A stretch of 64,000 bases of DNA, from NCBI GenBank assembly GCA_023213395.1, contig CM041465.1, forward strand, positions 206,715,741 to 206,779,740, in the 5' to 3' direction. This document shows, piece by piece, positions 3,828-51,082 of this stretch (its first letter is position 1; each line of letters begins with the position of its first letter). The DNA is from Cycas panzhihuaensis. Its lineage: Eukaryota; Plantae; Cycadophyta. The position numbers and the translations under genes are program-made. A model generated the notes under the pieces. The model searched no databases. It saw nothing but the letters and a program-made list of their open reading frames with translations, and had not been told where the DNA came from.

Positions 3828-3829
3828 AG

Positions 3830-3842: not shown

Positions 3843-3899
3843 ACTTTTTATTTTGTAGTGAGTCTGTAAAGGTTTTGGTGTCAGGTTTTCTACACCAAA

Positions 3900-6800: not shown

Positions 6801-7809
6801 ACTTTAAATTTATGGACAATGGATTATTCATTATCTTGGTATTATATATTGATGACATGCTGGTTGCAAGCAAGAGCATGGCAGAAATCAATAAGCTAAA
6901 GGCTCAATTAGCTAGGACTTTTGATACGAAGGATCTAGGAGCTTCAAAACAAATCTTAGGCATGGAGATACATAGAGACAGGAAAAATGGTAAGCTATGG
7001 TTATCACAGTAGAAATATGTAGAGAAGGTGCTAACCAAGTTTGGTATGGCAAATGTGAAACTAGTGAGTATCCCATTGGCTTACCACTTCATGCTTTCTT
7101 TGAATATGAGTCCTAGTAGTAAAGAAGAAAAGGCTTATATATCTCATGTGCCTTATGCTAGTGCAGTAGGAAGTTTGATGTATGCTATGGTATATACAAG
7201 ACCTAATATTTCACATGCAGTCAGTGTAGTTAGTAGGTTTATGGCAAATCCAGGAAGAGAACATTGGGCTATAGTGAAATGGGTGCTTCGGTATTTGAGA
7301 GGCATAAGTGACTACTGCATCGCCTATGGAGGTACAGGTAATCAGGTTTGTGGATATATTGATTCAGACTTTGCAAGAGATTTAGACAAAGAAGGTCTAC
7401 TTCAAGTTATGTTTTCACTGTTGCAAATGGTCCAGTTAGTTGGATGTCCAAATTGCAGAGCACAGTTGTACTGTCAACCACGGTAGCTAAATATATTGCT
7501 GCATCACATGCTTGTAAAGAAGCAATCTAATTACAGGGTCTATTGGTTGAGCTTGGAAGAAGATAGGAAAATATAAAGGTATTTTGTGATAGTCAAAGTG
7601 CCATTTACTTAGCCAAGAATTTGACTTATCATAGTAGAACAAAGCATATTGCTCTTAAGTATCATTTTATTAGATAGGTTATGGAAGTAGGTGGAGTGGC
7701 ACTTAAGAAGATTTACACCAATCAGAATTATGCTAATATATTCATAAAACTAGTACCGGTAGAGAAGTTCAAATGGTGTTTGACTTCTCTTGGCTTATAG
7801 AAAAGATGA
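3900..7809 (+). pseudogene. copia gag-pol polyprotein pseudogene (gag, Zn knuckle, PR, INT, RT, RNase H)
   Basis: Motifs [72 protein letters not shown] and RTKHI. Start ATG has mutated to ATA and there are many stops. Confidence 0.95.
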
Positions 7810-7845
7810 TGAAGGGTCCAGGAAAGGTACCGGGTAAATTGCTGT

Positions 7846-7857
7846 CAAGGTGGAGAT
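7846..7857 (+). promoter_or_regulatory. Polypurine tract of copia-1
   Basis: caaggtggagat lies immediately before the 3' LTR. Confidence 0.85.
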
Positions 7858-8525
7858 TATTGGATATTGTGACAACAATTGTTTAAGGTTAAAATTTTAG
7901 CATGTTTTCAGCACAATTTCCCCCCCAATCTTTCTCGGGGGGTTCCAAGAGGGGCGGGAGCCCCCCTTGGCTAGGGGTGCAGGGCCAGGGGGGGGGGGGG
8001 GGTGGGGTGGGGGCTGGAACGCCCCCCACTAGAGGGGGTTCAGAGGCGATAGCCCCCGACCCAAAAAATTAGCCCTGTAAACGTTATTAAAATATAAAGA
8101 GAATCAGGGTCATTCGACACAAATACCCTAAATTCCATAGTTGAGATTCATGCCTTGGATATCCCTCTCATGTAGCCCATTTTAGGTCTTTTCTTATTAT
8201 GTTGAATGTAATGTAATGTTCTGTGATGAGGGCGATGGTTGGTTGTTGTTCCTAAGAGCACTCTGCTACTAAGATGTACTATTTCTCAATTCTACAACAA
8301 TAAAGATCAATACCTTTCATGTGTGGATGTTTCCCTAGCACACTGCTATGGTTTTACCACATTATATTAGGTGTATATATGATGTTTAGCTTCTATATTG
8401 ATGTTATTATATTATCTCTGATTTTAGAACTTGCATGTTAAATCTTAGTTTCGATTCCTGTAACTAGTTGTAAAATAGTTCAGATCTTATGGCGGTTTAA
8501 AGTTTGGAACCTTGTATTCTCAACA
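7858..8525 (+). repeat. 3' LTR of copia-1
   Basis: tattggatattg...ttctcaaca, with an expanded G-run. Confidence 0.95.
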
Positions 8526-9730
8526 AGAGGTAAATGTACATATGGTCTTATCTTCACTAGATTTTATATCACTTATAGAGAAAAAGGATGACATTCAATA
8601 CTTAATTTATAGCCTATATTATAATGAAAAAAAAATTGGTTCTAAGTTTGACTCTACACACAATTCAAAACTTATTATAATAACTATTTAGATATCATCA
8701 TCCTTCCATAAAGTTATTAGATATTCTCTAGAGGAGTTTATTGATAACGAAGAGTCTTATATAGTGTCAATATTAAAGGCATAGTAGGATGGAGACATTT
8801 TTAAAGATAAAGAATATGTGTTACCCATCATACTAGGGCATGAAAAACTTAGTAAAGGGTTAGAAGCCTACCAAGAAATTGAAATGGTGACAAAAGTTAA
8901 AGATATAGTCATAGATCATTTCACTAGTAAACTATAATAGGATGACACTCTTAGTGGATTTGAAAAAAGAAGGGTCTTTTCTACAAATAAAGATGATTAC
9001 GATTCAATGTTAAACATGGATTTTGAAGAGGAAGTATCTATCTTTCTAACTAACATACATGATCACTTCTCATATGAGTAGGAAATCTATGTTGCATAAG
9101 CATTCATAATTGACTGTAAAAATTCATCTCGAGATAAGGGTGGGGAAGTCTACCTTGTTCTTAATAAGAGGACAAGATAACAATGCGACCATTGTGACTA
9201 TCATATAAGTAACTAAAAAATAATAGAAGCCTATAGAGAAAATGAATAGATTAAATGTATTAATTATTGATTTAGATTTTAGTTTGATATTTTTTAATCT
9301 TGTATACTATGATCTATACTTAATATACTTTAGTTCTCACTTCAAGATTGGCTTTGACTCTATATTGTGTGACAAAAAATAAAAGCTCCTATTAGACTTA
9401 AAGTCTCCACTAAATCTAATTAGTGAAGTCTTTCTATATCATAAGGGATACTACTGTTACTTGATGGTGTCTAGTAAGGAGATTCTCCTCTTACATAATA
9501 TCATTTTTCACAATCTATAATTGGACGTATAATGTTTTGAAAGCTACATCCTAAAATTATTAAATCTATATGGAGACATTATGTTTGTACTTCTAACAGG
9601 ATAGTTCATGACCAGATTCTACTAAGTTCCTGAGCACTATCACCTTGTACATATTAGACTAAATACTTTTATTTTTAGAAGTTTACCTTTTATCAACTTG
9701 TAGGGGGTTAATAAAAGCAAGGAGACTAAA

Positions 9731-12700
9731 TGTTACCCTCTATTTTTAGTCCCTACTAAAAAAACAGAATGTAAATGGATAAAATAAGTCATGAATTTAA
9801 TAATAAAAGAAGAAGAAGGTTGCATAGATCATGAGATTAACCTACTAGTTTTGAAGATCATTGAAAGCTAGGTTATGAAGTACTAATAAGAGTTAATAAC
9901 AATTAAGATTCATGTTTCATTGAATTTGCTATGACAATTTTATCAATTTAAAGGGTGTCTTACAAGAATCAAGGAATCATCTAATTCTAGAGGTTATTAT
10001 GTATGTTGCAAGAAGTTTCAAAAGGTTCACTTAATATTATATATGGTAATATGCAAATGGAGTTTTATTTAAAAGAATAAAGTGACATGAGTAAGTAAAT
10101 GCCATAAAGCCTCATGTGAAAAAAGAATAATGATCAAGTCATTGTCTTGTAGGAATGCTCTATTTGAGAACATTTTTGAAGAAATAAATGATGACAAAGG
10201 AAGTGTTAACATAGGAAACACCTCATGTGAGAAAGGCTAATGCATGAGAATAAAAAAGTGAGATAGTTACTATGAGTTGTTATTCCTCAAGGAGGCATTA
10301 TTCAAAAATACTTTTTAAAAATATGGGTGTCAATGTGGGAAAGATTAATGTGGGTGGAAGCATATGACGAAAGAAAAAAAAGTTATTTATCAATCATACA
10401 AAATGAGCTTCCACATAAATTCTTATGTGAAGAGATGAACTCCTAAGAATAAGCATTTGTACAAGAAGCCATGATGTAGGAAATAGAGGAAGAATAGACA
10501 ATTCCTATAGATTGTTTGAATATATGAATTTTTTTTCTTACAATATTTTTTAAAAGTAAACCCTCATGATGAAAAGACCACTATGGAAAGTAGCCATGCA
10601 AGACTATATTTATAAGATTTAGAGATTTATAAGAGCATATTTATAAATGGACATACAAAATACAAAAATACAAATACAATTTGGGACCTTGATTCAAAAC
10701 ACACTTTAAATTATAACCATTTATCTCCCATTACATATCATGATTAAAGTCTAATTACTCAATGTGATGATGACCTAATGACTTTAGCAATGCTGACACA
10801 TCATTGATATGATTATATGCTTGACTTATAAGAAATAAACATATGATTATAAAGGCTATGAGACATGAAGTAGTTATTAATCTACATCATGTACCCCCAT
10901 ATCATTCAAATAGATATAGAATAAAGTTTTAGGGGAAAGGAGATCATACAAGTTGCACAACCTATAGGTGGAAGGATTGGAATTGTAAATTAAATGGTCT
11001 AATCTAAAAAGGGTTTGAATACAAGAGACAAAGAAGATCTTGCAGTGGACAAGTTTATAGAAGATTTATATGATGTGTTACATCCTTAATCACTAAATGG
11101 CCATGGGATGCACAAACCATGTGGAATTCTAAGATCCATATTAGGCCAATAATTAATTTTAAAAAGTCAAATAAACTCAAATTAAGTTAACATATAATGA
11201 GAAGACAATCCCTCATCTATGATCGCAATGCAAGGAAACATGAGAATCAAACATAATAAAGTTATATACATGCACATAAGGGATAGACCTTGAAGGTTAA
11301 AAACTAGATACAAAGATAGCCACAATTGGAGGATGGTAAACATCATGGACTTATATCTTTATTCATCAATCCTCGATCAATAATTTCATAACTGATTAGC
11401 TAAAGTAAGTCTACTACATAGGATTCAAATCTATTGACCAGACATAAGTGAAAGATTACATCCACCATTAGCCATTCTCAATTACTAATCAATTAATTTC
11501 TATCATGATGACTATCTCAACAGCAATGTAGGGTCACATCTAACAATACCTGAGTGATCATGACTACTCTAATGACTACACTCATAAGACTATTATAACA
11601 TTAACACCAACTTATAGGGATCATTTTAAAACCAAATAACCAACACAAAATTTACCATCTTAATAGGGGGTAAGATCATTCTTTGGCATAGTGGTTATAA
11701 ATCAATGGAGTAAAGGAAAAGTTTGAATTTAAATTAGAGATATTCTTCATTAACTTATAATGAAAGTGGAGGAAACTTAAAAGATAAGACATTGTAATTT
11801 AAAAAGGGTTTAACTGTGACATATGAAAAAAGAGAGAGTGTTGCAAGAGGTTCTTCAAAGGGAAAAGTTCTCTCTCTTTATTTTTTCTTTTTTCCTTCTT
11901 CTTTTTTCCCATTCTCTCTTCTTTTTCTTTATTGATATTTATTTATATATGCAATTTGGCTAAATTATATTTTGGTAAGAGGTAATCTTAATTGAAATAA
12001 AACTCATGAAACTAAGAGTACTTAGCAAGCACATTTTATTTATAGAGGCCTTAATTCATCATGATTGTACGTATTTGTATCAATTGATTTTGTTGGGTAG
12101 AACTTTTGTACTTAGGCACTCTATTATATACAATGCTTCTTTATAATAAAGCACATATTACTTCAAGAAATAATTGTTTTCTTAATTTATTAAACATATT
12201 ATCAGATGTTTTACTATAAACAATTCATTTTAGGAAATAGATATATATATATATTACTAAAGTTTTATTTCTTGAGGTTGACCCTTTTATGTTTCCCTTT
12301 GAATATACTTAACTCGCATGACTATATACTTTGAATAACACTTTAATGTTTCCCTTTAAATACATGCTATAATTCTTTGACTATTCACTTCAACTTTGAA
12401 TTATTAGGGAGGCATACAATTTATATTCTTATGAGTGTATTTTAGGCATTAATGAGAGAATTTAGTAAAAAGTTAGAGAGAATAATCTAGAGATATACCC
12501 CTTATGATTTCATTTAAAGGTCTTTGCCTACTAGTTTAGCCTAGATAGATTAAGACATTGACCTCATTTTCTATGATAGATGCTCAAGTGAAAGAAGAAG
12601 AGCTTATTTCTCTTTATTTTTCTTCATTTAAAAATCTTTTTTCTTACTCTTTTTATCATTCAATTTCTTCCCCTTTTCTTTATCTTTCCCTGTTATACTC

Positions 12701-12922
12701 TAAAAAATATACTTTGTAATTCTACTTAAGGGCCACTTTATTTCTTAACTTCATATATTATATACATCATATCTATTATGTATCATTGAATGGGTCAACT
12801 TGGAAATACTATAGAGTTGGATATGTTGTAGTTACTTCACTATCATTTATGATTATTTGTCAAATGTGTAAACCTAATCTTATTATAGCCCATCATTATA
12901 GGGGTAAAACAATAGAGAAACA
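9731..12922 (+). repeat. 3' LTR of element A
   Basis: ~10890-12922 matches 1-1992. The start is inferred at tgttaccctc (9731) after purine-rich aaaagcaaggagactaaa and cannot be verified inside the window. Confidence 0.6.
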
Positions 12923-13285: not shown

Positions 13286-14632
13286 TAGAAGCATAGCTCT
13301 GGGGGGTCACCAGATGCAAAGGGGATCAATCCTATTTAAACAACAACTAGAGGCTAAAAGATCTTCAGGAGCAAGGGTGTCCATGCATCAAAACATAGGT
13401 TTGAGGACCTGCAAATGGCACACAAACCTCCCCTTAAGGTAACCACCTTCTTGATATCACAATGGGTAAAGGGAGGCTCCCTCAGTTTGCTGAGTAGCCT
13501 TAAAATGACCCTCCTATCCTAAATAGCCAAGGAAGGAGGATCGAGCTAGGGGACACCCTTCTTAAGAAAAAGGGAACATAAGAGGTAGGTCTTAATTGAA
13601 AGTAAGGGTACCTATAAGAAAAAAATAAATAAATGGTAATGTAAGTGTAATGGGGAACTTGGAAAAGGGCCAACTTCCAAATAGAGGCAAGGCAAAGTAA
13701 CACCCTACCAAAGGAATGAAAAGGGACCTTAAGGGGGATGCCCCTAAGGTGCCTATACCTAGAAAAGGTGGCTAGATGCAAGGAGTTAGGCAATGCATTT
13801 TTGTTTCTTTGTTTTTGTTGTATAATGAAGTGATATGGTGATATGAGTCATTATTGTCCCTAGTTTGTACTTGAATAAAAAGGAAGAAAAGAACAAAAGA
13901 AGACAACAACTCTCTCTCTCTCTTTCTAGATCCTAGACTTCCTCTCTTTATTTTTTTATAAGCACAAAAAGGAAACAAGTAGGTAGGAAGCATAGGAAGA
14001 GGATGCAAGGACTAATACAAGTTAACCCAATGGCGCATGGGAAAGAGGACAAGTTGGGAGTAGAGGAACCCATAAACTTTCACACTTAAACTCTAGTTAA
14101 TGCAAGGGTTTGAGCTAGGAGAGGGGGATAAAGATGTAATTAGTGGGGATCAATATCTACTTGTGCAAAGTAGTTACCTTTCCCTCTATATGATTGAACA
14201 TGTCAAGCAATGAACAACAAAGTATAAAACTATATTTTCTTTTGTTCCTTCTTTTCTTATTTTGGGAATAAGGTGGGGAAAAGAATGAGTGAGAGGATGG
14301 GATGAAAGAATGCACTTGGAAACTAGATGATTGGTGTAGAGGCCCTTTCACTTTCTATACGATCCATGCTCATCCACCTAACACTCCTTGTTGCAATCGA
14401 TATTGTGAGAGGAATACCAATAGGGCTTCCTTACCTTCCCCAATGTCCAAATGTAGAAAGAACCAAAGGAAAGAAAGAAAGAGTTGCTTATAATAAGGTT
14501 TCAAAATAATTCAATGATAACAAACAAGATATGCATACCTGTTGTGAAGGCCCTTGGTTGCTCCAAAAGGGGTGAAACCTACACAACAAATGGTTTACTC
14601 TCTCCTAAGGGGCACTAGGCATACACGGGAGT

Positions 14633-14680
<48 letters not shown>

Positions 14681-16517
14681 ACACACACACACACACACAT
14701 GTATATGTTTATTTAAAGGAAAACAAGAAAGGAAGTGACCTTATATAAATCCTTCAAATGAGCACAATATACATTGTTAGTTTTTCTTATTATTCATACA
14801 ATTCATTTCAATGATTACGGGAAAAGGGGGGAGAAAGTAAGAAGGGTGGCCTCAGAATGGCAAACCCTTTGAATGATGTATCTCCACGTACCTAAGCACT
14901 TAAGTGGTTGATCAAGAAAGGGGCTAAAATCATCTAATAGTAAAATGGGCAACAAATTTTGTATATGGAAAAGTGTTGTAAAAAGTTGTAAAAGTTGCAA
15001 TGTGCAACTTTTGCAAGATTTTCAAAAGTAAGGATAAGGCTATGTGAATCCAAGGAGATACTACTAAAAACTAGATTTTATAGGGCTATGATGGTTGGTT
15101 GTAGGCATAGCAAGGTGATGCTAATGCTACAACCAACATGGTTACCTATCCCTAAGGATTTCTAGGTGAACAAGGGAGGTATAAGGAGAATAAAAGAAGT
15201 GAAGAGTAGGGGGTTGCCCTTGAAGAGATGGAAAAATGGTGCAAAACCCTACCTGGAACTCTTTTCTCTCTTTACTAGTCTCTTTTCTCTCTACCTCCTT
15301 GAGTGGGACCAAGGGAAACCTTAAGGTGGAAGGGAAAAAGACAGTAAAAGGGAGGGTTTGCCTCTTATAATGAAGAAATAAGAGGTAGCTTCACACAGTA
15401 AATAGAAAAGTAAGTAAAGAAACTCTTATTCTTAAGGAGAAGAAGGATGTACATGCCTAAAACATACTTGGTAAGAATAGATCTAAGGCAGATCTACCTT
15501 GTATGTTGGCTGCGGAAGAGATTTACCTTGGAGGATTAGTGAAGAACCCTTGTAATGACATAAGGAGGGAGCATAACCTATAACAAACTTGATGCTTGAG
15601 ACTTGGTGGAGCACTTATGGGGAAGATCTATCTTGTAAACTCACTACTACAACCCTGCAACTGAGGGTTTTACCCTAAGGAAGAAGATGGTTGGAGTAGA
15701 AGATAGGTACAATAGGAGAGAACCTTTGTTTTTAGAAGTTTTCTTAGAGATGAGGAGGAAGAAGAGGAAGAATGAGGTAAATTTTAGGTTTTTAAACCTA
15801 ACCCTAGCCTAACGGGCGATTAGGGCTTGCCCTGGGTGGGAAACAACTTGGCACCATATGTCAATTTTGCATTTAATATAAAATTAGATGTGGGCAGATA
15901 AAAAAATAAATTTAGATAGTTGCATAAACTTCATGGTACTATAAAGTTTATAGTAGTACCCTAGAATTTGTAGTGGTGCACTCAAAACTAGGAGAAAACA
16001 AAATGGGGAGCTTAGAAGGCTTCCTAAAAAGGGGGCCCTAGACCCTAAAAGGGAAAACCAATATATTACTAAGGTGCCAAGGGTGTTTTAGGACCTAGAG
16101 GGACTATGATGAACAAGAAAAAGGTGGCGATAAGGGCCCAAAAGAAGGACAAGTGGTGAACAAAGATGATGACTGGTCTTAAAGAGGTTGCTAGGGGTCA
16201 CATCATGCCAAGGAGTGATAAAGGTCAGGGTTGCAAGAGCCAAGAGTGCTTGGAGGCATTGTGGATGCATAGTAGAGGGTTACAAGTTACCATGGGATAT
16301 GTATCCCAAGTTGTCATAGGCTAGAATATTCTTTGCAAATATGAATGTGTAGGTAGGCTAGGCACAATGATCATATAATCAGTCAATCAATCAATCATAC
16401 AATGTATATCTATCGATAATCCAACAGCATCCTAAAGCCAATGAAAGTAAGGATAGACACATACCTATACTTACCCGAGGTGAGTCATTTATGTCTATTC
16501 CCGATGGTCAGGAAACA
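13286..16517 (-). repeat. 3' LTR of element B
   Basis: tagaagcatagctctgggggg...ggtcaggaaaca is colinear with 26755-30037. Confidence 0.93.
14635..14699. repeat. (CA)n microsatellite inside LTR
   Basis: Visible dinucleotide run. Confidence 0.95.
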
Positions 16518-16530
16518 CTGCCCTCTTGGC
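16518..16530 (-). promoter_or_regulatory. Polypurine tract of element B
   Basis: Minus-strand gccaagagggcag abuts the 3' LTR start TGTTTCC. Confidence 0.7.
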
Positions 16531-17024
16531 AAAAGAGCCTCACTTCTTAGATGCATGATGTAATGGCGAATGTTAGCAACACAAAGGTTAGTATCATGCA
16601 TCAAAGTATAGTGGTTTCATCATCCAAGGGTGTGGTGAGTGTCATGGAGGAACACGTGGACAAGGAGGAGAGAGGGGTAACATAGGGGCGGCCTATGCAT
16701 CACCCTAGAATGTAATAAAAGAGAGGGTGGATGAGGGGGATACTCCCATCACACCTACGCAAGATGGATGGCATTGACAATCATGAGAATAACAAGATGA
16801 CATACTAGAAAGTAAGATAACATAATAAAAAGCAGGTACAAGTGGAGGTCGACATGTAAGGGCTTCATGCCATAGGTGTTATGAAGGATAAGGTGAAGAA
16901 ACAAACCTAGTGGTCACTATAGTTTAACCTCATTAGTGACTAACTTTTAGAGGTGTGAATGGATCATAGGATAAAGGACAAGACGATCCTAGAACCGAGG
17001 TGATTAGACAACCTGACAGGTCCC

Positions 17025-17447
17025 TTAGAGAGGGTCATCAAGCATAGGGAGATGACACTCGAGGATGCAATGAACAAGACCATTTGACTTAGAGTTTAAG
17101 TCTCGAGGAATATGTTGAACACACACAAAGGTAAAACATGATAGGAGAGTCTTGGTAATCAAAGTGAGGGCTCTCAAATTTGGGTAGCATACCTAGTAAA
17201 GATGGGTGAGCTGTGACATGATGATCTGAGAGTTACAAAAGAGGATGATAGGACCATGGTAGAAATCAAGTGCATTAGTAAGAGCCTTGATAACGATTAT
17301 GTATTCATCTTCATTATTGGTGGCCTTAGGGAGAAAGACTCTAGAATATAAGTAGTCATATGTAAAGGGGTCACAGAGGATCCATGTGATAATAGAAGGT
17401 CCTGGGTTACCACGACTTCCTCCATCAGTAAAGATGAGCAATACCAT
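17025..17447 (-). pseudogene. Stand-alone archaeal/bacterial-type RNase HI (aRH, RVT_3-like), ~140 aa, one in-frame TAG
   Basis: MVLLIFTDGGSRGNPGPS...ATNNEDEY...ILFCNSQIIMSQL...Y*VCYPNL...QHIPRDLNSKSNGLV...DDPL*. All RNase HI motifs are present in order. Two catalytic Asp positions read Asn. Confidence 0.88.
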
Positions 17448-17890
17448 GATGAAGAAATGAGGAACCTCATTAAATGGTGGAAGGAATAATGATGGTAAGA
17501 TCAATAGGTAGAGAGAAAAGAAGAGAGGTAGTGAAGGGGATATAAATCACTCAGAAGGCTATGAATAATGGGTCATGAAGGATAGGAGAGTCCTAAAAAG
17601 AGGCTACCTAGGGATGAGAAAATTGACCTAGTAAAGAGGTAGGAAACGATAGTAAAAAAGGACCCTTTAGGGCCCCAAAGGTTTTTAAAAGGACCAAGAT
17701 GAGGCCTAGAAAAGGGGAGGCACTTCCTTTGGGATCCCCAAAGGCTTGAACGGGTAGCAAGAACAGATCTAGAATGGAAAAATGAGTTAAAGGAGTATAA
17801 ACATGGGTATGTTTTAGAGCGGCACAAAAAATGAGACAAAAGGGGTCTATGAGAGATTGAAGAGGTAGTTATAAATGCACCAAAAAGCTT

Positions 17891-17970
17891 AAAAGGAAGG
17901 CCATAGAGGCAAAATAGGGGATGTACCCTGAAAAAGGAGGCCATAGAGGTAAAACAGGGGATGGACCCTA
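17891..17970. repeat. 40-bp tandem duplication in the spacer between the aRH and PMD genes
   Basis: aaaaggaaggccatagaggcaaaataggggatgtaccctg / aaaaaggaggccatagaggtaaaacaggggatggacccta. Confidence 0.85.
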
Positions 17971-18056
17971 AAGACAAAGGTGATGAGGCCAAAGAAATAG
18001 TCTTGAGGGTTGTCACAGTGGCAAAAAAGGAGAAAGTGCCCCTCGGGGCCCTTGCA

Positions 18057-18064
18057 TATATAAA
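18057..18064 (+). promoter_or_regulatory. Candidate TATA box for the antisense PMD gene
   Basis: TATATAAA lies ~150 nt upstream of the first plausible PMD-gene exon. The call rests on position only. Confidence 0.35.
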
Positions 18065-18199
18065 GGAAGGAGGGTGAAAATGAGATTTATTTTCATCAGC
18101 TCATGATCAATCTAGAGCCCTTCCTTCTATGTAGTGGAGCCCTGCCTGACTTTAGGAGTATACATCAAGAGATTTGTTCATTGGATCAAGGTGAGAAGA

Positions 18200-20029
18200 T
18201 AGCCAACATGACCAGGATGATGAGATGGTAGTGGTGAGGCCAGATCCTGTGAGTGGATCACCCCTTACCTTCTACATTTAATTGTTTTATTTAATGACTT
18301 TTGATATTTTTTAGAGCTTAATTTGGGCCTCTTAAGGGCAAGTTAGGACTCTCTAGAGCTTGAATGAGGCCTAGAGAGGGGGAGGACTAGGACATTAGGT
18401 AGCCCTGGTCCTAGTGGACCATGCCTTGGCCCACTCTAGGAAAGTTTTGAGGTTTTTTAGGCATCACCCATTTTTAGGAGGGAAACAATGGCCCCGTGAC
18501 AAAGATCATGGTGTTGCAAAGTTTGTTATGGGGCTACTCAGGGGATGTAAAAATCTCAGCATGGCCCATGTCAAACTTTATGGTACCATTAATTTTGGCA
18601 TAGGGCAGATAGGAGATGGAGGAAAAAAGAAGAAAAGAGGCCTAGAAGGATGGCTAGCTCACCCAAGTGGAGCAAGGGGTATCCCAAGGGCAACTATATA
18701 TGGTATAGAGAGTATTTAGACTGATACTTGGGTGGTTTTATAGGTGATTCTTATAGTGGACAACTGTGAGAACATTAGAGTTGTGATGATGAGCTTCATA
18801 AAGATGATGTCGTGAAGAGATAGAGGGGTCTTGAGATGTTGCAGGCTCCTAAAGGTCATCAAGACACCTTAATACACATTAGACCAATGTCTCCTAGTGG
18901 ATATAGTCTCCCACTAGGATCATAGGTAATACATTTTCCACCTCCCCCAGGTAGGAGATGTCACTATCATACTAGGGACATCACAAGGATTCTGGAGGCA
19001 CCAACAAGAGGAGTGCTAGTATCATTGGGCACATTGCCTAGTATAGATATCATACACATGGAGGCAGCCATATATTTCATGAGCTAGGGTAGATGGGACT
19101 GATGAAGGTGCTAGTACAAACTATGGTAATGTCCAAGATTCCTTAGGTGAGGAATCTCATTACACTAGCCATTCTATTCTAGATCTCTCAGAAATAGAAT
19201 TACAGGGATATTCCTGGTAGATGGATGGTCACAGTGAGGAGATGCAAGGCTAAGGAGAGATTGGACTAGGCTGCCTTAATAGTAATAAACATAATGGCAC
19301 ATTTGGATGTGATCTAAGTGGCAGGGAGAGGTATTTTTTCATATTATACTCTACTATAATGCTAGTGCTTCGATCACTTTGGAGCAGTGGAATAATCCAA
19401 AGGGCCTCATCCTATCTCAGCACAAGTGCCCATGGTCCACAGGTGGTAGACTTAGTTTAGGGGAACCAAGGATCATGTTCATGTAAGGAGGTCCATGGAG
19501 GTGACATCGCTAGACCTCCTCACCCTAGCATACTATACAATGGACCTATATAGAGGGGTACATTGGGATAGCAATGACATAGTGGGGGATCTTGGAGATG
19601 ACCATGACAAGGTTAGAAGCAATTATGAAGACAATAGAGTAGGCCCATTAGGAGCTACAAGAGGAGAGGTGGGTCCCTCAAGAGTTGCAATAGGGGATAG
19701 GCCACCCCATGCACTAGCATAGAGAGAGAGTGGCAGGCAGAGCTCCAATGGCACTAGTGGCAATGGTAGAAACAAAAGAGGCAATGATAGCTATGATGGA
19801 TAAGGGAGAGGAGGTAGGGGATATCTTAATAAGACATGAGGTAAGAGAGGTGGTACCAGAGGTAGAGGAGGATGGACCAACAACTGAGGAAGGTCTTATG
19901 GAGGAGGTGGTCATCAGAGAAGAGGAGCCAACCGTCCCAAGAGATAAGACACTATCCCTAATCAACATCTTTCAACCACTAACTGCCTAGATAACTTACT
20001 TTAATTTAATTTTGATGCTTTGATATATA

Positions 20030-20065
<36 letters not shown>

Positions 20066-20750
20066 TGTATATATGTATATGTATTAGACTGATGCATGGC
20101 ATGCATGATTTGGCAGGAGCAATAGAGATGAGAAAGTTAATAGAGGCAGTAGTCTAGGAGTTATTCCCCTAGATCTACATGGAGGGACAGCCTCCCATTT
20201 AGGCTAGAGAGGAGCCTCAATCAGTAGGGGCACACATAGTGGAATTCACCCCATTAGTTAGGGCCAAAGATATGTAGGCAATAGAGTCTTACAGACACCA
20301 GATGAGGTAGGACAATTATAGGGAGAGCTAGATGGACTTTGTGTGGAGAGGGGCCAGATAACTACAAAGAGGGACCAGATAACCGTGGAGAGGGATGCCC
20401 TACGAGGCTAGGTCTAGGCGCTAGAGGCTCATGAAGGAGGATTTGCAGGAAGAGATGTAGAGAGTCATATTAGAATTACTATGCTGGAGGAGGGTCTCGA
20501 GAGAGTAGAAGTCGAGAGAGATCGTATCCAGACGAGTTACAATTAACTGGTAGAGCGGGTCGCTACCAGGTCGTCGTAGAGCATGACTTACACTCATATG
20601 ATGACACCAACCCAAAGGAGGCATTAGGACAAGGGGAGCAAGGCAAGGAGCTTACAACAATGTAGGAGGAGCCTATGAGGCATGTGGTCTCCTAGCGAGG
20701 GGTCTCACAGGTGAGGAGACGATACCCCTTAAGGGTAGGGCATCGAGGAG
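18200..20750 (+). pseudogene. Antisense Plant Mobile Domain (PMD, MAIN/MAIL1-like) gene with RGG-rich and coiled-coil C-terminal parts, probably intron-containing
   Basis: Translation from 18882 gives DQCLLVDIVSH*DHR*YIFHLPQVGDVTIIL/DITRILEAPTRG, then RLD*AAL, TLL*C*CFDHF, PMVHRW and LDLLT..YTMDLY. These match PMD motifs LVERW..ETHTFHLP.GE.TITLQDV, WG.A.L, LLQ.W.WEH and LD.L....W.PY. Ends are approximate. Confidence 0.8.
20023..20082. repeat. (TA)n/(TATG)n microsatellite inside a putative PMD intron
   Basis: Visible run. Confidence 0.9.
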
Positions 20751-21557
20751 CTAGATGCATGATTAGTTCTAAGCAGGAAAGCATTGGATCTGTAGGGAGT
20801 CATACCATATGTAGACACATGATCATATTCTTCCCTATAAGGATTCCAACTTCCTCAGGATGATGTAATATATGGATTTGTATGATATGATTCATTATAA
20901 TTATAGACATGGGCTAATTGGTATCCCATTTGACCCATGATGATGGTATAGTGATGGTTTTATGGTATTGCTATATTGTTTATTTGCTTGATTTATTTAT
21001 GCATATGCATGGAGTGGTAGATGCATGGAGATAAATGTGCATGAGTACATGAGGGACTAGGCACTACAATGATTGTAATTGATTGTTATGTATAGCTTTT
21101 ATTGTTACATCATATGGATCATACTCACATTTCCCTTTATGCAGCATCACACTCATAGCGGGCACATATGACCATTGTGTATATAGGTGATAGGCATGTA
21201 TGGGGCTAGGAGAGGGAGATCCATTTATGTTTATTGAAGGAGCAGAATGGATATGCAAGGGAAACAACAACAAGGAGGGAGTATAGATACTCAAGTAGAA
21301 GGCCCTAGTTTGGATACGATTCAGAGCTCGGGAGTGACGAAAGATTACACATCCAAATAAGAGGAGCGGTTTCCCTTAGGAGGGAAACAAAAAAAATGCA
21401 ATACAAATGATGAAACTATAAAGATGAGAGGCCACCTTGAGTTATCATTCCACCTATGGTTAGGAGAAATGGGGACACGCTCAGGGTGGTAGTTTAGGCT
21501 CATTTTAGAGCGAAAGAGGAGAAGGAGTGTGCCTAATCTACTCAGGAGTAGGGAAGG

Positions 21558-22445
21558 TTATACATAGAATTTCTTTAGAAATTTACCATTGATGGCCTTC
21601 TTAAACTCAAGACCCTCTAGAGTTATAATCTTGTAGGAACCATTGTCAAGACTTTTTAGGATGACAAAAGGACCAATCCATTTGGGCCCAAATTTGGAGA
21701 AGTGGTCATGGAGATACTCTAACTTGAGGACGTCATCCCTAAGATGTAAAGCCTGATGCAGGTATTTTTCATACATTCTTTACATCCTAGCTTTAGAGGT
21801 GAGATTCGCTTAATATGCAATGAAATGTTTCTAATCTAAGGCTTCGAGATTAAGGAGGTAAGCTTGGCAATTAGATTCCTCATCGATAAGACTTCAGAAG
21901 GAAACATGCAAGCAGGGAATTTCAGCTTCCAAAGGGAGAATCACCTCAGTTCCATACATGAGGGAGAACGAGATCATCCCTGTGGCCATGCAGATGGAAG
22001 TGTAGTATGTCCATAAAGTAGAGGGAAGTTAAAGGTGTTAATCCTTTTGGGATTGAGCAATGGTTTTCTTTAGGATGCTTATAAGAGTCTTGTTAAAGGA
22101 CTTGATTTGGTTGTTGGCCTGAGGGTAATAAGGAGAGGAAGTCTTATGGGATATCCTAAACTTCCCATAAAGCTCATCTATTTCCTTATTATAAAAAGGA
22201 GTTCCATTATCTGTGATTAAGATATCTAAGACCTCAAATCAAAAGATAGTATTTTGGTAGATAAATGTAGCTATAGTCTGACCAAAAATGGAAGACAAAG
22301 GGATCACTTTGGCCCATTTAGTAAAATATTCCATCGCAATCAAGATAAACTTATGCTATGATGAAGAAGGAGGGGTTATGGACCCAATGAGGTCTAATCC
22401 CCATTAGGAGAAAGGCCATGGAGAGATAAAGGGGTGTAGGGGGTG
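21558..22445 (-). pseudogene. Integrase core and GPY/F C-terminus of element B (HHCC zinc finger missing)
   Basis: SPWPFS*WGLDLIGSITPPSS..HKFILIAMEYFTKWAKVIPL, ITDNGTPF, SPYYPQANNQ and KFGPKWIGPFVI...NGSYKI...INGKFLKKFYV. Confidence 0.92.
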
Positions 22446-23439
22446 TTGCTTTTGTAGCATAGGGTGAGCACCTAGAAAAGTAGTAAGGTTATGGGTGACA
22501 ATGGAAGGGTCTATTCCCTTCATGTCATCATAATCTCATGTGAAGACATCATGGAACTCCTAAAAAAGAAGGGTATACTCCTTCATTTCACTAGGAGAAC
22601 ACTCCGCTCTAACCTTGATGACCTTTCCAGGAGCAAGGATAATGTCCTTAGTTGCCCCTATACACATGGAATTCCCTTCCTCAAAGTGAAAGGGGGCTTA
22701 GTCAATAGGAGGGGAAAAGAAGAAGAAAGGAGGTTTGGGTTAGCTAAGGGTGACCTAAGGGATAAAATCTTCTGGTAACTAAGTTTATGGTGACCAGGAG
22801 GGAGATTGGACGTGGAGCCCACTAGATGCTCTAATAAAGCCTTGTCATTCTCAAAGCAATCTATCTCATGGATAGTTATACTTGGAGAAGATGAGGAATG
22901 AGGAGTAGGAGGAGCATCGAGACCATAATAGTTGACCCACGACTTGATATAGTCAGGAGAGTCTTTATAAGAGTCAGAGGATGATCTCTTATAATAGATA
23001 GTAGGAGGTTCCCTTGTCTTATTACTCGAGGAGGGTAACAAGGTAGAAGGTGAAGTGAGATGGGAAGTCACATATCAGACATGAGAGATGATGCGTGACT
23101 CAGCAGGAGGATTATGCTCCTCAATAGAAGAGGCTTCAGGTTGGGACCTAAAAAGAGGTGAACACCCCCTACTCATGTTCAGGAAGGATATGGGATAAGG
23201 GAGGTGCTCATCCTCATCATCAGACTTATTGTCGCTCAATAGGATGAGGTACCCATAACTCCCCACACCAATAGGGGTGAAGCGAATAAGGTTGGAGGAA
23301 GAGCCTTCTTCCAAGCAAGATGAGTTGGGAATGTCAATGGAGCAAGTGGAAGCATGGGTGGATGGGCCCTTGTTGCCCTTCGCCTAGTCACGAACTACTT
23401 AACGGGGTTGGTGTGATTGCTTAGTGGGAGGAGGCTCCC

Positions 23440-26400
23440 ATGAAATAACCTTTATTCAGCCTTTATGGATGAACTTGAGTTTCCCTAAATGGGACAAACA
23501 CACGGCTCCTATCTAATCAATCCATAGACATCCCAATAAAAGATTGTATTCACGTCTATGTCGAGGACTACGATGTCAGTGAGGATAATTTTGTCCTCAA
23601 GGGTAAGAGGAATGGAAACCAACACCAAGGGCATCTTCTCACTACCATCATAACCTTGACAATGCTAAGGGACCAGCTTAAGAGTAGTTATGTCCAACTC
23701 TTGTATGATTCACAAGGGCATAGGATTAAGGGAAGAGATGTTATCTATAACAATTCTTTGAAGAGTACATTCAGGTGTGTCTATGGATATAGTGAAAGGG
23801 TAGTACCATTGGCATTGCCTTTCATGGGTTGGAGGGAGATCTTTAAGGTCAAACAAGATGACAGGTTTATGGCTTGGGGTAACACTCAAGGCATGAACAA
23901 AAGCATCAACTAATCCTAAAGCCTCTAGGAGGAGAGCATATTTCTCTAGGTAGCTTCTGAAGATATCCATCATGGACATTCCTATAGCCATGGTGTATAA
24001 CTCATCAATGATAGAGAAGGGTTTCCCCTTCATGGTAGGTTGGGGAAGCACCCTTCAAAAATCATAATGACTGGGGCAAACGGGGATTGTCTTAGGGGGC
24101 AGTGGGATCTCTGAAGGAGGATTCTCTAATGGAGGGTTAGGATGAGAAGAAGAAGAAGCACCTCTTACTTCTTTAACTGCTTAGTACCAAGTTAAGGAAT
24201 ATAAAGGCATGGTCTCAAGCATCTAGATGACTCTCTTTCTCTTATCTTAGGATCAAGAGGGATAAGGAGTTTAGTGGTAGGAATTAAAAGAGGATGAAGA
24301 GTTCCTTACCCCCTTCCCCTTAGATTATATGGGGTGAGGGTTAGAGGACCTTCCCTTATTTTGACTCCCTTTTTTCTAGGCACATGGATCCTGTTCCTTG
24401 TGTTTGGGGAAAGGATCCTTATGAATGGGTTGGTCCAGGTTGAGCCTAGATGCCTATTTAGGAGAGGAGTCATGATGTGGGGCTGATTTAAGATGTTATG
24501 CCCTACATTGTGAGTCCTCATAGAAGCACTCACCATTAATGGAGCACCATCTCTTCTCCAAGGAAGAGGTTATCTTCCTCACTTGAGAAGTATGGGTATC
24601 TCTATTCTTGAGAGGTGTATCTTGAGAAGCTTAATGAACAAGTTTATATGAGGTAGGCGATAAAGGCACTTGGAGTTTAAGCTCCTTCATTATATGATCA
24701 AAGGAATATATAACAAAAATCAAGGGGTCCAAGGTCTTCTTTGTCGAATGAGTCGAAGACCTAGGAGGTCGTTGGGTTTTGGTGTCACGGGATAGAGGGG
24801 GTGCCTCACGTCATTGTAATAACCTAAGAGGTATTTTAAGACCTGCTCAGATCTCAATGGCCTCAAGAGCCAAACATTTAGCTATGGCAGAGTCACATGT
24901 TATTGCCTCCATCTTGAGGACTTCAATATGTACATTGGGGCAAAAAACATTTATAAAAAGATCACTCCTTAACTCCTTGGGTGAAGTTTCCTTCATGGAG
25001 TGGAGGAGACCATGGAAATACCTCACAAAGTCATGATTCATTTCATTCTAACCTTGTTTGAGGGATAAGAGAGCCTTCGTTATGCTCTCAAAGGGACAAG
25101 CAATATCTAAATAATTGACAAACTCATCGACGAGTTGCTAGAATGAGTGGATGGAGTATGTGGGAAGGTGATAGAACTATTTAAGGGAATCATCTTATAG
25201 AAAATGTGGGAAACGTTTCATTAGGATGTGGTCATATACCTAATAATCAATGAACTCCATAGAAAAGCTTATAACGTGCTCTGTTAGGTCTTTAGAGGAG
25301 GTTCTGTTAAACTTGGGCACCTCAGGAGGGTGAGGCAAGTAAGTTGGTTCTTAATGCCTCAATGGATAAGGGAGTTGACCTATAGTCCATGAAAGGATAG
25401 GCCCTTGGTTGGACCATTGGGTCAATGAAGGATGAAGGGAGAGGTGGGCAAGGATGCCCAAAGCCTCCTTGGGAAACTTGGCTTGAAAGGGGATATAAAC
25501 TTCCTCCCACTTTGTGGGAGGGAACTAATCCTAAGTGTGAGGGGATCAGAAAAGAAGTGGATGGGTAGGAGGGACCCATCCCTCCTTAAGAGTATACCTC
25601 TTATTGAAAGGGGACTTAAGAGAGGGTACCTTGAGAAGGGGTTGGCCCTCCTTGTGAAAACACTACAAAGAGAAGAGTTTAAGAAGAAGGGATAGATGGG
25701 TACAGGATTGGATTTTTCTTATACAGAATACTTATAGGTGGTGCAATACCATATGGATGCAAGGGATCTACCTTATAAATGGGAAGAGAATTCTCCTTAC
25801 CATGCTCCCATGGTTAGGAAGTATGTCTTAGGGGTACGTAAAGGGATAAATCCTAGAGTTGAGTTCAAGAATTTGTGGGGTCTTATCCCACATGGCTAGA
25901 AGTAGGGGGATATGTAGGTCCCCTAGATCCAACGGGAGACAGATGGACTATGATCAGTTGGTGCATAGTCAGTTGGCTAGAAGGAGGCATACTCAACCTA
26001 AGTTGGGAAGTAGATATGCCTCAAGTGGCTGCTAAGAAATACAGGCCACAAGAAAAATAAGGCATAATGAGGGAGGCCCCCATTACAGATAGGTAAGTTG
26101 AATGAAATCAATGTGAAGGAGGGAAGTGCCACTCTTTGCAAGATGCTATCCAACCATTTGGGAGGTGGTTGGAGGTTAGCCACTTGGAAGCATTGATTAA
26201 TCGCTTTCACCATGTCCACATGTAGGGTATCCACCTACTCGTATGAGGTAGAAGGATCCTCATACAAAGTGGACACGACAGGGTGATCCTCATGGGCATT
26301 ATCACCAGGATGGTGGTATCCCATGAGAGAAGATACTTCCACTTCGTGAGTGGAAAGATGATGAACTTGTGGGTGCTCTCGGTCACCTGAGTAAAATATG

Positions 26401-26700
26401 GGATCCTCACCCTCTTGGGTGGGTCCCTAGAAAGAAGTAGAGGGTTGGTGGGACTCATAAACATAGGCACGGTACATCTAATCTGAAGCAAATCCCTCCA
26501 TGATCAATTTAGAATACAACGATGGAAGGGGAAAATAAGGAGAGTCTTCCAACAAGGGAGGGAGACCCTATAAACGACGAGAAATCATTGCATACAAGTC
26601 CTTCCATAAGAGTTAGAAGAAAGAGGAGTGACAAAATGATAGAGATTGTGGGATACCTAATGAATCAACGAGGGCTACCAAAAAGAGAAGTAGAACTAAG
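23440..26700 (-). pseudogene. gag and aspartic protease remnant of element B
   Basis: Gag motif EVPKFN...YDHILMKRFPHFL*DDSLK*FYHLP..SIHSF*QLVDEF at ~25100-25320. Protease motifs RIVIDNISSLNPMP (~23710-23750) and YNLLLGCLWI (~23520-23550). Confidence 0.85.
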
Positions 26701-26735
26701 AGAAAAAAGACTAGGATAGACGCATTACTGATGAG

Positions 26736-26753
26736 TCCCTAGTATAGTCGCTA
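26736..26753 (-). promoter_or_regulatory. PBS (tRNA-Arg type) of element B
   Basis: Minus-strand tagcgactatactaggga lies 1 nt after the LTR end CA. Confidence 0.85.
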
Positions 26754-26754
26754 G

Positions 26755-28128
26755 TGGAGGCGAATCTTTGGGGGGTCACTAGATTCAAGGGGGATCAAGC
26801 CTATTTAAACAACAACTAAAGGCTAAAAGATCTTTAGGAGCAAGGGAGAGGATTACCCACAAAGGGTGTCTATATGTCAGAACATAGGTTCGAGGACCCA
26901 TAAATGGTGCATAAACTTCCCCTTAAGGTAAGCACCTTCTCGATATCGCAGCGGGCAAAGGGAGGCTCCCTCAATTTGTTGAGTAGCCTAAAAAGGATCT
27001 TCTTATCCTGGATGGCCAAGGAAAGAGGATCAAACTTGGGGACACCCTTCCCAAGAAAAAGGGAATGGAAGAGGTAGGTCTTAATCGAAATGAAGGGTAC
27101 CCGCGAGAAAGAAATGGATAACTGATAATGAAAGTGTAAGTGGGAAGTTGTAAAAGGGCTAACTTCCAAATACAAATGAGGTGAAGTGACACCCTACCAA
27201 AGGAAGGAAAAGGGACCTTAAGGGGGATGCCCCTAAGGTGCCTATACCTAGAACGGGTGGCTAGATGCAAGGAGTTAGGCAACATATTTTTGTTTCTTTG
27301 TTTCTGTTGTATAATGAAGTGGTATGGTGATATGAGTCATTGTTGTTCTTAGTTTACACTTGAATAAAAAGGAAGAAAAGAAGATAACAACTCTCTCTCT
27401 CTTTCTAGATCTTAGCCTCCCTCTCTTTGTCTTTTTATAAGCACAAAAAGGAAATAAGCAGGAACGAAGCATAGGAAGGGAATGCAAGGACTAATGCAAG
27501 TTAACCCAATGGTGCATGGGAAAGAGGACAGGATGGGAGTAGAGGAACTCACAACCTTTCACACTCAAACTCTAGTGAATGTAAGGTTTTGAGCTAAGAG
27601 AGGGGGGTAAAGATGTAACTAGTAGGGATCGACACCTACTTATGCAAAGTAGTTACACTTCCCCTTATATGATCAAACAAATCAAGCAATGAATAGTGAA
27701 GCACAAAACTATATTTTCCTTTGTTCCTTCTTTTCTTCTTTTGGGAATAAGGGGGGAAAAGAATGAGTGAGAGGATGGGATGAAAGAAATGCACCTAGAA
27801 ATAAGATAATCAATGTAGAGGCCCTTTCACTTTCTATATGATCCAGTCTCATCCACCCAACACTCCTTGTCACAATCAATATTGTGAGAGGAATACCAAT
27901 GGGGCTTCCTTACCTTCCCCAATGTCCAAATGTAGAAAGAACCAAAGGAAAGAAAGAAAGAGTTGCTTACAATAAGATTTCAAAATAATGCAATGATAAC
28001 AAATGAGATATGCATACCTTTCGTGAAGTCCCTTAGTTGCTCTAAAAGGGGAAAAACTGATGCAACAAATGGTTTACCCTCTCGCAAGGGGCACTAGGCA
28101 TACATAGGAGTGAAAAAATAAAATAAAA

Positions 28129-28224
<96 letters not shown>

Positions 28225-30037
28225 TATTTAAAGGAAAAAAGGAAAGGAAGTTACCTTATATAAATCCTTCAAATGAGTACAATATACAATGTTAGTTTTG
28301 CTTATTATTCATATAATGTGTTTCAATGATTACAGGAAAAGGGGGGAGAAAGTAAGAAGGAAGGGAGGCCTCAGTATGGCAAACCCTTTGAATGATGTAT
28401 CTCCACATACCCAAGTACTTAAGTGGTTGATCAAGAAAGGAGCTAAGATCATCTAATAATAAAAGGGGCAACAAATTTTGTATATGGAAAAATGTTACAA
28501 AAAGTTGTAAAAGTTGCAATGTGCAACTTTTACAAGATTTGTAAAAATATGGCTAAGGCTATATGAATCCAAGGAGCTACTACTAAAAACTAGATTTTAT
28601 TGGGCTATGATGGCTAGTTATAGGCATAGCAAGGTACTACTATTGCTACAACTAACAAGTTTCCCTACCCCCAAGGATTTCTAGGTGAACAAGGGAGGTA
28701 TAGGGAGAAGAAAAGAAGCAAAGAGTAGGGGCTACCCTTGGGGAGATGGCAAAAGGATGTAGAACCCTACCTAGAACTCCTTTCTCTTTTCATTGGTCTC
28801 TTTTCTCTCCATCTCCTTGAGTGGGCTTGAGGGAAACCTCAAGGTGGAAGGGAACAAGCCAACAAAGGGGAGGTTTTGCCTCCCAAAATGAAGAAATAAG
28901 AGGTAGCTTCACATAGTAAATGAAAAATCAATCAAAGAAAATCTTATTCTCAAGCAGAGGAAGGATGTGCAGGACTAAAAAGTACCTGGTAAGAATAGAT
29001 CTGAGGTAGATATACCTTGTATGTTAGCTAGGAAAGAGATTTCCTTTAGAGGATTGTTGAAGAACCCCTATAACGATGCAAGGAGGGAGCATAACCTACA
29101 ATAAACTTGATGCTTAAGACTTGGTGGAGAACTTATGGAGAATATTTATCTTGAAAACTTATTATTGTAGCCATACACCTTAGGATTTTACCCTAAGGAA
29201 GAAGATGGTAGGAGTAGAAGACAGGTACAATAGGAGAGAACTTTTGTTTTCAGAAGTTTTCTTAGAGATAAGGAGGAAGAAGAGGAAAAATGAGGTAAAT
29301 TTTAGGTTTTTAAACCCAACCCTAGCCTAACGGGTAATTAGGGCTTGCCCTAGGTGGGAAACTATTTGGCATCATGTGTCAATTTTACATTTAATATGAA
29401 ATTGGTTGTGGCCAGATAAAAAAATAAATTTGGATAGTTGCAACATAGCAAACTTCGTGGTATCATGAAGTTAGCAGTGGTACCACAGAATTTGTAGCAG
29501 TGCCCTCAAGACTAGGAGAAAATAAAAAGAGGAGCTCAAAAGGCTCCCCAAAAAGAGGGCCCTAGACCCCAAAAGGGCTAACTAATGCATTGCTAAGGTG
29601 CCAAGGGGATTTTAGAACCTAGAGGGACCATGATGAATATGAAAAGGGTGGTGACAAGGCCCCAAAAGAAGGACAAGTGGCAAATAAAAACGATGACCAG
29701 GCCTAAACGTGTTACTAGGGATCACGCCGTGCCAAGGAATGATAAAGGATGGGGTTGCAGGAGCCAAGAGTACTTAGAGGCATTGTGGAGGCATGGCAGA
29801 GGGTTATAAGATGCCATGGGATATGTATCCTAAGTTTTCATAGGCTAGAATATTCTGTGCAAACATGAATCTAGAGGCAGGACAAGCATAATGATCATAT
29901 AATTAATTAATCAATCATACAATGCATATTTATTGATAATCCAACATCATCCTAAAGACAATGAAAGTGAGGATAGACACATACCTATACTTACCTAAGG
30001 TGAGTCGTCCATGTCCATTCCCGGTGGTCGTGAAACA
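26755..30037 (-). repeat. 5' LTR of element B
   Basis: tggaggcgaatctttgggggg...ggtcgtgaaaca, followed by TSD ctagc. Confidence 0.93.
28113..28222. repeat. Compound (TAAA)n(TA)n(CA)n microsatellite inside LTR
   Basis: Visible runs. Confidence 0.95.
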
Positions 30038-51080: not shown

Positions 51081-51082
51081 CT

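What the first reader, a model, noticed from the sequence alone, without database searches (positions are those of the whole stretch)
17025..20750. Head-to-head accessory cassette in a gypsy 3' region: stand-alone RNase HI plus antisense PMD gene
Seen: between integrase (ends 21558) and the 3' LTR (16517) are two divergently oriented genes ~750 bp apart, an RNase HI on the element's sense strand and a PMD gene antisense to it. Known: Tat-group elements carry an additional archaeal-type RNase H, placed behind integrase in the gymnosperm TatIII group. PMD ORFs occur as extra ORFs in some Tat/Ogre elements, and domesticated PMD proteins (MAIN/MAIL1) act in chromatin silencing. Inference: the two genes form a separately transcribed module, possibly an R-loop-removal plus chromatin anti-silencing pair. 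I do not know of this exact arrangement being described.
Basis: partly seen in the sequence, partly recalled or inferred. Interest (0 to 1): 0.78.

Follow-up and report, generated by a model that had tools for sequence, protein, structure and literature searches.

The report
Gymnosperm retrotransposon's back-to-back accessory genes
An old, broken jumping gene of a gymnosperm carries behind its integrase a separate RNase H gene and, back to back with it, a backwards-reading plant-mobile-domain gene; both parts are already described for this retrotransposon group, and only their order and a likely shared promoter seem undescribed.

Summary
A 16.7-kb Ty3/gypsy element (13298-30037, minus strand) carries an archaeal-type RNase HI (17447-17025, minus; Pfam RVT_3 E 6e-10) 4.1 kb behind the integrase stop. 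A PMD gene lies on the plus strand between them, shown through relatives at 18780-19707. Their starts face apart across about 770 bp. The cassette belongs to the family: relatives cover it throughout in four organisms, and a second, divergent element in this window also ends in a stand-alone RNase H. Novelty is mostly gone. The antisense PMD of gymnosperm TatIII (PMC4408406) and the separate-ORF RNase H behind integrase (PMC10508981, PMC13468544) are published. I did not find the order INT-PMD(antisense)-RNase H, the head-to-head spacer or the likely introns in the texts read; figures were not visible. The RNase H most likely serves reverse transcription in trans, because Tat native RNase H is degenerate. 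R-loop removal has no direct support. Expression and dN/dS were not tested.

The parts
26767..30037 (-). 5' LTR (3.27 kb)
   Evidence: self-BLAST; 85.8% identity over 3205 sites to the 3' LTR, K2P 0.16
26747..26764 (-). decayed primer-binding-site-like stretch
   Evidence: position next to the LTR; its likeness to the tRNA-Arg PBS of Ogre/TatIII is recalled, not tested
24700..25400 (-). gag-like remnant
   Evidence: no Pfam hit; tblastx E 7e-45 to another gag-like stretch at 53052-53552; label by eye
23480..23760 (-). protease-like remnant
   Evidence: by eye in six-frame translation; no Pfam hit
22434..22640 (-). stub of the RT N-terminus, joined in frame to the integrase core; RT core, native RNase H and integrase zinc finger are deleted
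   Evidence: junction translation; relative L003 has RT_RNaseH and H2C2 upstream of integrase, but its integrase match to this element starts at 22439; reads and contigs leave the window's sequence at 22424-22429
21558..22433 (-). integrase core, 9 stops in 290 codons
   Evidence: Pfam rve E 2.4e-4, below cut-off; 62% identity to L003
20930..21139 (+). T-rich island behind the PMD gene, likely 3' UTR or terminator region
   Evidence: composition scan; inference
20119..20760 (+). likely last exon of the PMD gene, weakly coiled-coil-like
   Evidence: Pfam CC149 E 0.11; heptad score reached by 3 of 300 shuffles; no homolog aligned; end uncertain
19990..20118 (+). intron-like island (26% GC, 44% T, AG acceptor, decayed donor, TATG microsatellite)
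   Evidence: splicing not shown
18780..19707 (+). plant mobile domain (PMD) coding region, pseudogene, antisense to the element
18250..18315 (+). intron-like island (GT...AG, 27% GC, 48% T)
   Evidence: 2 islands observed in 18200-20760, 4 of 500 shuffles reach 2
18209..18249 (+). likely first exon of the PMD gene (ATG at 18209 or 18226)
   Evidence: sequence only; inference
17448..18208 (.). divergent spacer with a plus-strand TATA box (about 18058-18065), a 40-bp tandem duplication (17891-17969) and a CT-rich leader ahead of the RNase H
   Evidence: promoter function not shown
17025..17447 (-). stand-alone archaeal-type RNase HI (aRH), 140 codons, pseudogene
16912..16952 (-). 41-bp non-coding motif shared with the second aRH-bearing element
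   Evidence: 83% identity, E 6e-5; depth spike at 16903-16966; no significant fold; no Rfam match
16518..16527 (-). short, imperfect polypurine tract
13298..16517 (-). 3' LTR; 5-bp flanks match at 4 of 5 bases

Best explanation
This is an old, decayed, RT-deleted copy of a gymnosperm Ty3/gypsy element with the TatIII (post-integrase, structure #3) layout, in which a stand-alone RNase HI likely serves as the element's working replicative RNase H and a likely spliced antisense PMD gene likely acts as a chromatin accessory factor. Shown: both genes, their order and orientation, the stand-alone frame, a multi-copy family context and the decay. Inferred: the 770-bp spacer is an internal two-way promoter. 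One short mRNA would run through the RNase H into the 3' LTR and give a free protein of about 15 kDa. That protein would join reverse transcription in the particle and replace the catalytically dead native RNase H. The other mRNA would run antisense, be spliced and give a PMD protein with a possible coiled-coil tail. Its introns would survive retrotransposition because they lie on the strand opposite to the genomic RNA.
For: [quoted passage not shown] The native RH is degenerate in all aRH-bearing Tat structures whatever the aRH position. The aRH is closer to prokaryotic RNase HI (34-40%, 69-84 bits) than to the LINE aRH or the aRH of the 10 fetched loci, which give no significant match; PMC4408406 reports that lineage III aRH groups with a bacterial enzyme. 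The closest named PMD relatives are three Ginkgo proteins. A second element in the window has a 39%-identical aRH with its own ATG and an in-frame stop six codons ahead of it, followed by the same 41-bp motif and an LTR-like repeat. All 30 bins are covered in 4 contig sets from 4 organisms. Raw-read depth over aRH, spacer and PMD is within about twofold of integrase (X14 medians 22, 37, 17 vs 33; X15 7, 9, 12 vs 14). Stop density does not differ from integrase (aRH 1/140, p 0.18; PMD 13/218, p 0.13; integrase 9/290), which fits decay after insertion. Grande's antisense gene has its own promoter. Ty1 particles admit RNase A (about 15 kDa) but not benzonase.
Against: No RNA data bear on promoters, splicing or expression. 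No record in the listed pieces links aRH to PMD in another copy; the longest listed piece covers under 400 bases. dN/dS could not be computed, and the stop-density test has low power. RT is missing, so the element cannot be placed on the RT tree that defines TatIII. The same paper that cites RNase A entry notes that its density maps show no regular gaps of that size. Gypsy PMDs (PMD-A) have no tested function; the silencing data concern PMD-C. The 2015 text places aRH at the end of Pol and the PMD ORF at the 3' end, a different order.
Confidence: 0.62

Rival explanations
1. One reading: the free RNase H removes R-loops at the element's DNA in the nucleus, and together with PMD forms a dedicated anti-silencing pair.
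For: The genes share a spacer and could be co-expressed. A free enzyme is not tied to the particle. The plus strand is G-skewed (+0.20 to +0.34), so the antisense PMD transcript would be prone to R-loops (inference). MAIL1's PMD resembles the VANC anti-silencing domain.
Against: The G-skew runs across the whole element, so it is not specific to the cassette. A degenerate native RH in structure #3 elements needs a replacement for replication. In other Tat lineages the same enzyme sits inside Pol. The two roles are not exclusive.
Confidence: 0.15
2. The RNase H is joined to Pol by splicing: a 4.1-kb intron, with the PMD gene on its other strand, is removed, which would give the C-terminal INT-aRH fusion drawn in 2015.
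For: A GT lies in the last codon of integrase, and an AG lies 18 nt ahead of the aRH ATG in the same phase, behind a pyrimidine-rich tract. It would reconcile the conflicting reports named in PMC13468544.
Against: The acceptor reads GAG, a rare form (recalled), and the donor is weak. The aRH ATG aligns with the first residue of stand-alone bacterial enzymes. The second element has an in-frame stop six codons ahead of its ATG and no AG in the same phase at that place.
Confidence: 0.13
3. The antisense unit matters mainly as RNA (double-stranded RNA or transcriptional interference that tunes the element), and the PMD protein is a passenger.
For: PMC7264820 discusses this role for antisense transcripts. 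PMD has the highest stop density of the three regions (6.0% vs 3.1%, not significant).
Against: Protein similarity persists to Ginkgo (about 30%) and among four unnamed relatives (63-81% where they overlap) in open frames, which suggests selection on the protein.
Confidence: 0.07
4. The cassette is a later, private insertion, or an RNase H picked up from the neighbouring LINE.
For: A LINE with its own RNase H lies next to the 5' LTR. Three X2 contigs join about 16935 to about 21487, skipping the cassette, but with sides of only 20-24 letters.
Against: The cassette is covered at multi-copy depth in four organisms. The aRH shows no significant match to the adjacent LINE's enzyme. A second element has the same 3' end. 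No flanking direct repeat was found (94 of 500 shuffles score as well).
Confidence: 0.03

Closest known systems
TatIII / Tat lineage III (Ustyantsev 2015, PMC4408406: parts 2-4 of 6, table S1 part 1 and supplementary legends read; Neumann 2019, PMC6317226: passages and Additional file 5 read)
   Same: Gymnosperm Ty3/gypsy, archaeal-type RNase H behind integrase, antisense PMD ORF in the 3' region, 5-bp target duplication, 13-17 kb.
   Different: The 2015 text puts aRH at the C-terminus of Pol and the PMD ORF at the 3' end, without a coiled coil. Here PMD lies between integrase and a separate aRH, likely with two introns and a weak coiled-coil exon. The element is 16.7 kb although RT-RH is deleted. 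Figures 2B (2015) and 4 (2019) could not be seen.
Tat structure #3, 'post-integrase', clusters Tat H (conifers) and Tat I (Cycas, Ginkgo) (Biryukov and Ustyantsev 2023, PMC10508981: whole text and supplement part 3 read; PMC13468544, 2026: passages read)
   Same: aRH as a separate ('solo') ORF behind integrase; 68% of Tat elements in Cycas panzhihuaensis have this structure.
   Different: PMD, promoters and the spacer are not discussed: 'PMD' has 0 hits in the 2023 supplement; 'PMD', 'mobile domain', 'eORF' and 'promoter' have 0 hits in the 2026 main text. The 2023 paper leaves open how aRH works from a separate ORF.
Antisense aORF-3R genes of Ogre, Retand and Grande (PMC7264820 and PMC11963269, passages read)
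   Same: An antisense accessory gene between pol and the 3' LTR; in Grande it has its own promoter.
   Different: No sense-strand enzyme gene shares the promoter region; 'intron' has 0 hits in both texts.
MAIN/MAIL1/MAIL2 PMD-C proteins (PMC5418596 and bioRxiv 2024.09.27.615353, passages read)
   Same: PMD fold family; chromatin role; anti-silencing by TE-encoded PMD is proposed there.
   Different: They are host genes of clade C. Gypsy PMDs are clade A, with no tested function. The clade of this PMD was not tested.

Membership tests
TatIII / Tat structure #3 | archaeal-type RNase H behind integrase | tested here: met
   conserved arginine present
TatIII / Tat structure #3 | aRH in a separate ORF (2023 definition) | tested here: met
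   4,111 bp behind the integrase stop, 69-87 stops per frame in between
TatIII (2015 description) | aRH fused at the C-terminus of Pol | tested here: not met
   this point was revised by the same group in 2023
TatIII | antisense PMD ORF in the 3' region | tested here: met
TatIII | position in the RT (RT-RH-INT) tree | not testable with these tools
   RT is deleted in this copy; REXdb references were too large to read
TatIII | degenerate native RNase H | not testable with these tools
   deleted here; in the relative L003 (62% integrase identity) the native RH is followed directly by integrase and looks degenerate by eye
TatIII | 5-bp target site duplication | tested here: met
   4 of 5 bases match
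TatIII | tRNA-Arg or tRNA-His primer site | tested here: inconclusive
   decayed site next to the LTR; likeness to the Arg type is recalled
TatIII | gymnosperm host | tested here: inconclusive
   nearest named PMD relatives are from Ginkgo at about 30%, unnamed ones reach 57-67%; a cycad-like host is an inference
Ogre / Retand (Tat IV-VI) | aRH between native RH and integrase | tested here: not met
   aRH lies behind integrase; L003 has none between RH and integrase
PMD (PF10536) | score above Pfam's cut-off | tested here: inconclusive
   the broken window frames give no hit; 1 of 7 relatives passes, 4 hit below cut-off, 2 have no hit; 27 of 30 atlas hits for P0122 are PMD clusters

The most novel reading that the evidence does not exclude
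Post-integrase Tat elements of gymnosperms run a third and fourth gene from one internal two-way promoter: a free RNase H that completes reverse transcription in trans, and a spliced PMD-coiled-coil factor that keeps the element open. A core replication enzyme would thus be taken out of Pol and co-regulated with an anti-silencing gene, which would answer the open question of how a separate-ORF RNase H can work.
Probability: 0.3. Interest if true: 0.65.

Novelty: new member of a known kind. Interest (0 to 1): 0.34.

Why it matters
The parts are known, so this is not a new system. The detailed anatomy bears on a stated disagreement (aRH in Pol or in its own ORF; PMC13468544) and on a stated open question (how it works from a separate ORF; PMC10508981). 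It gives exact places to look for transcription starts and splice junctions. If the PMD gene is spliced, ORF-based surveys would miss it, which may explain why REXdb assigns none of its 434 PMD hits to TatIII.

Tried and rejected
No host genome is held, so copies could not be collected. No RNA holder was listed. Direct Pfam scans of the PMD frames gave no PMD hit. A search for longer relatives of P0122 found none among 809 candidates (weak evidence). The aRH search covered lengths 77-247 only and returned 122 hits; all named ones among the 120 listed were prokaryotic or of no stated organism; fused forms were not searched. Sister loci: none in viral contigs or in metagenomes with the PMD profile. 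The integrase query gave 10 loci, 9 of them distant (27-41%) and none with PMD. RAD-seq run X11 laid only 9 reads. A direct repeat flanking the cassette was rejected. The 41-bp motif does not fold better than shuffles (z -0.45 and -1.19) and the region has no Rfam match. Single-contig joints that skip parts of the cassette (17463-20203 in X7; about 16935-21487 in X2) are too weak to use. Contig depth was not used to rank parts. Literature searches behind 'not found in print': with term look-ups. Figures, REXdb Additional files 1 and 3 and subscription papers such as Steinbauerova 2011 were not visible and may already show this order.

Full report
The element. Self-comparison shows two 3.2-kb LTRs, 13298-16517 and 26767-30037, of a minus-strand element of 16,740 bp. 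They are 85.8% identical over 3205 sites (K2P 0.16), and the 5-bp flanks match at 4 of 5 bases. With a recalled conifer rate of 2.2e-9 per site per year the insertion would be about 36 million years old. CpG is depleted to 0.12-0.25 of expectation, so methylation decay likely inflates this figure. Every identified gene is broken. The copy also has an internal deletion: a stub of the RT N-terminus runs in frame into the integrase core at about 22434. A metagenome relative with 62% integrase identity (L003) has native RNase H and the zinc finger upstream of that point, and the window's element has no match to them. Many contigs and reads leave the window's sequence at 22424-22429 (107 in X1; 47 in X15 and 64 in X2), so many relatives do not share the deletion. 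Whether some do is unknown.

The RNase H. 17447-17025 (minus) matches Pfam RVT_3 at E 5.7e-10 and four prokaryotic RNase HI structures. A search at lengths 77-247 gave 122 proteins, 29-41% identical among the 120 listed; those named with an organism are bacterial or archaeal. The archaeal-type arginine is present. Two of the four catalytic acidic positions are not acidic and there is one stop, so this copy is dead. It starts at its own ATG, in register with bacterial stand-alone enzymes, 4,111 bp behind the integrase stop, with 69-87 stops per frame in between. It shows no significant similarity to the adjacent LINE's RNase H or to the aRH of the fetched loci.

The PMD gene. Pfam did not see it directly. 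A plus-strand frame found 3 relatives among 1.84 billion proteins, and their profile found 7 in all: four unnamed Logan proteins and three Ginkgo proteins. One passes the PMD cut-off, four hit below it and two have no hit; 27 of 30 atlas hits for P0122 are PMD clusters. Together they tile 18780-19707 across at least two frameshifts. On the plus strand of the 5-kb region there are exactly three T-rich islands. Two are bounded by splice-like signals (18250-18315, 19990-20118), and 4 of 500 shuffles of 18200-20760 give two islands. The third lies behind the gene. A TATA box sits about 150 bp ahead of the first ATG. The last exon is weakly coiled-coil-like (Pfam E 0.11; 3 of 300 shuffles). The gene model outside 18780-19707 is an inference.

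Family context. All 30 bins of 15700-27100 are covered in four contig sets from four organisms, mostly at 80-95% identity. In two capture libraries, raw-read depth over aRH, spacer and PMD is within about twofold of integrase; nearly all reads align only in part, so this is a rough figure. No listed piece links the two genes in another copy. Stop densities of aRH (1/140) and PMD (13/218) do not differ from integrase (9/290; p 0.18 and 0.13). A second, more decayed element at the window's right edge has a 39%-identical aRH (63954-63553, minus) with its own ATG and an in-frame stop six codons upstream. It is followed by the same 41-bp motif and an LTR-like repeat. Its PMD side lies outside the window.

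What is known. PMC4408406 (parts 2-4 of 6 read) states that gymnosperm lineage III has an antisense PMD ORF at the 3' end and aRH at the C-terminus of Pol. PMC6317226 (passages; table) gives TatIII as aRH after INT, 12.7-17.3 kb, with a reverse 3' eORF in 18% of 39 elements. PMC10508981 (whole text; table) places aRH in a separate ORF in conifers, Cycas and Ginkgo. Its text says 'upstream of pol', but its table gives INT.aRH. It reports that native RH is degenerate in all aRH-bearing structures and asks how aRH can work from a separate ORF. PMC13468544 (passages) calls this the post-integrase structure with a solo aRH and notes the conflicting reports. An anti-silencing role for TE-encoded PMD is proposed in PMC5418596 and bioRxiv 2024.09.27.615353 (passages) for clade C; gypsy PMDs are clade A. 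In these texts and in the searches I found no statement that PMD lies between integrase and aRH, head to head, or that it has introns. Figures and the large REXdb files were not visible.

Mechanism. The most likely reading (0.62) is an internal two-way promoter that gives a free RNase H of about 15 kDa for reverse transcription, replacing the dead native domain, and a spliced antisense PMD accessory protein. Ty1 particles are reported to admit RNase A but not benzonase, with a caveat from density maps (passage). Rivals are a nuclear R-loop role (0.15), a spliced Pol-aRH fusion (0.13), a role of the antisense RNA alone (0.07) and a private insertion (0.03). Transcription, splicing, selection and function were not tested.

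Verdict. This is a new member of a known kind, with an order and gene structure that may be undescribed. Interest 0.34.

Noticed in passing
window 63954-63553 (-), 62794-62754, about 62475-60400: A second, more decayed element with a stand-alone aRH (39% identity), the shared 41-bp motif and an LTR-like repeat. Pieces of that repeat match 40425-42150 in opposite orientation, possibly a solo LTR.
   Followed up: partly
window 16903-16966: A non-coding motif behind aRH draws far more reads than its surroundings (140 vs medians of 12-37 in X14) and is conserved between two divergent elements. It is a candidate cis-element or protein-binding site; no significant fold, no Rfam match.
   Followed up: partly
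window about 22434: RT core, native RNase H and integrase zinc finger are deleted in frame; the two ends may share a short similar motif (by eye). Whether a non-autonomous subfamily shares this junction is unknown.
   Followed up: partly
window 30300-32100 (-) and 58400-60340 (+): Two LINE remnants with zf-RVT and their own RNase H (Pfam E 6e-18 and 9e-9), about 55% alike; one lies next to the 5' LTR.
   Followed up: partly
window 3184-8528 and 46437-51720: Two 5.3-kb LTR elements with 640-bp LTRs, 85% alike, in opposite orientation; class not tested.
   Followed up: no
window 1-1985 and 10892-12915: A 2-kb direct repeat, 76% alike, possibly the LTRs of an older element that holds the 3184-8528 insertion.
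   Followed up: no
window 18380-18420 and 19494-19714: Short stretches of the PMD gene draw much higher depth than their neighbours, which suggests they are shared with a larger sister family.
   Followed up: no
window 53052-53725: A gag-like remnant on the plus strand, related to this element's gag (47% in tblastx).
   Followed up: no
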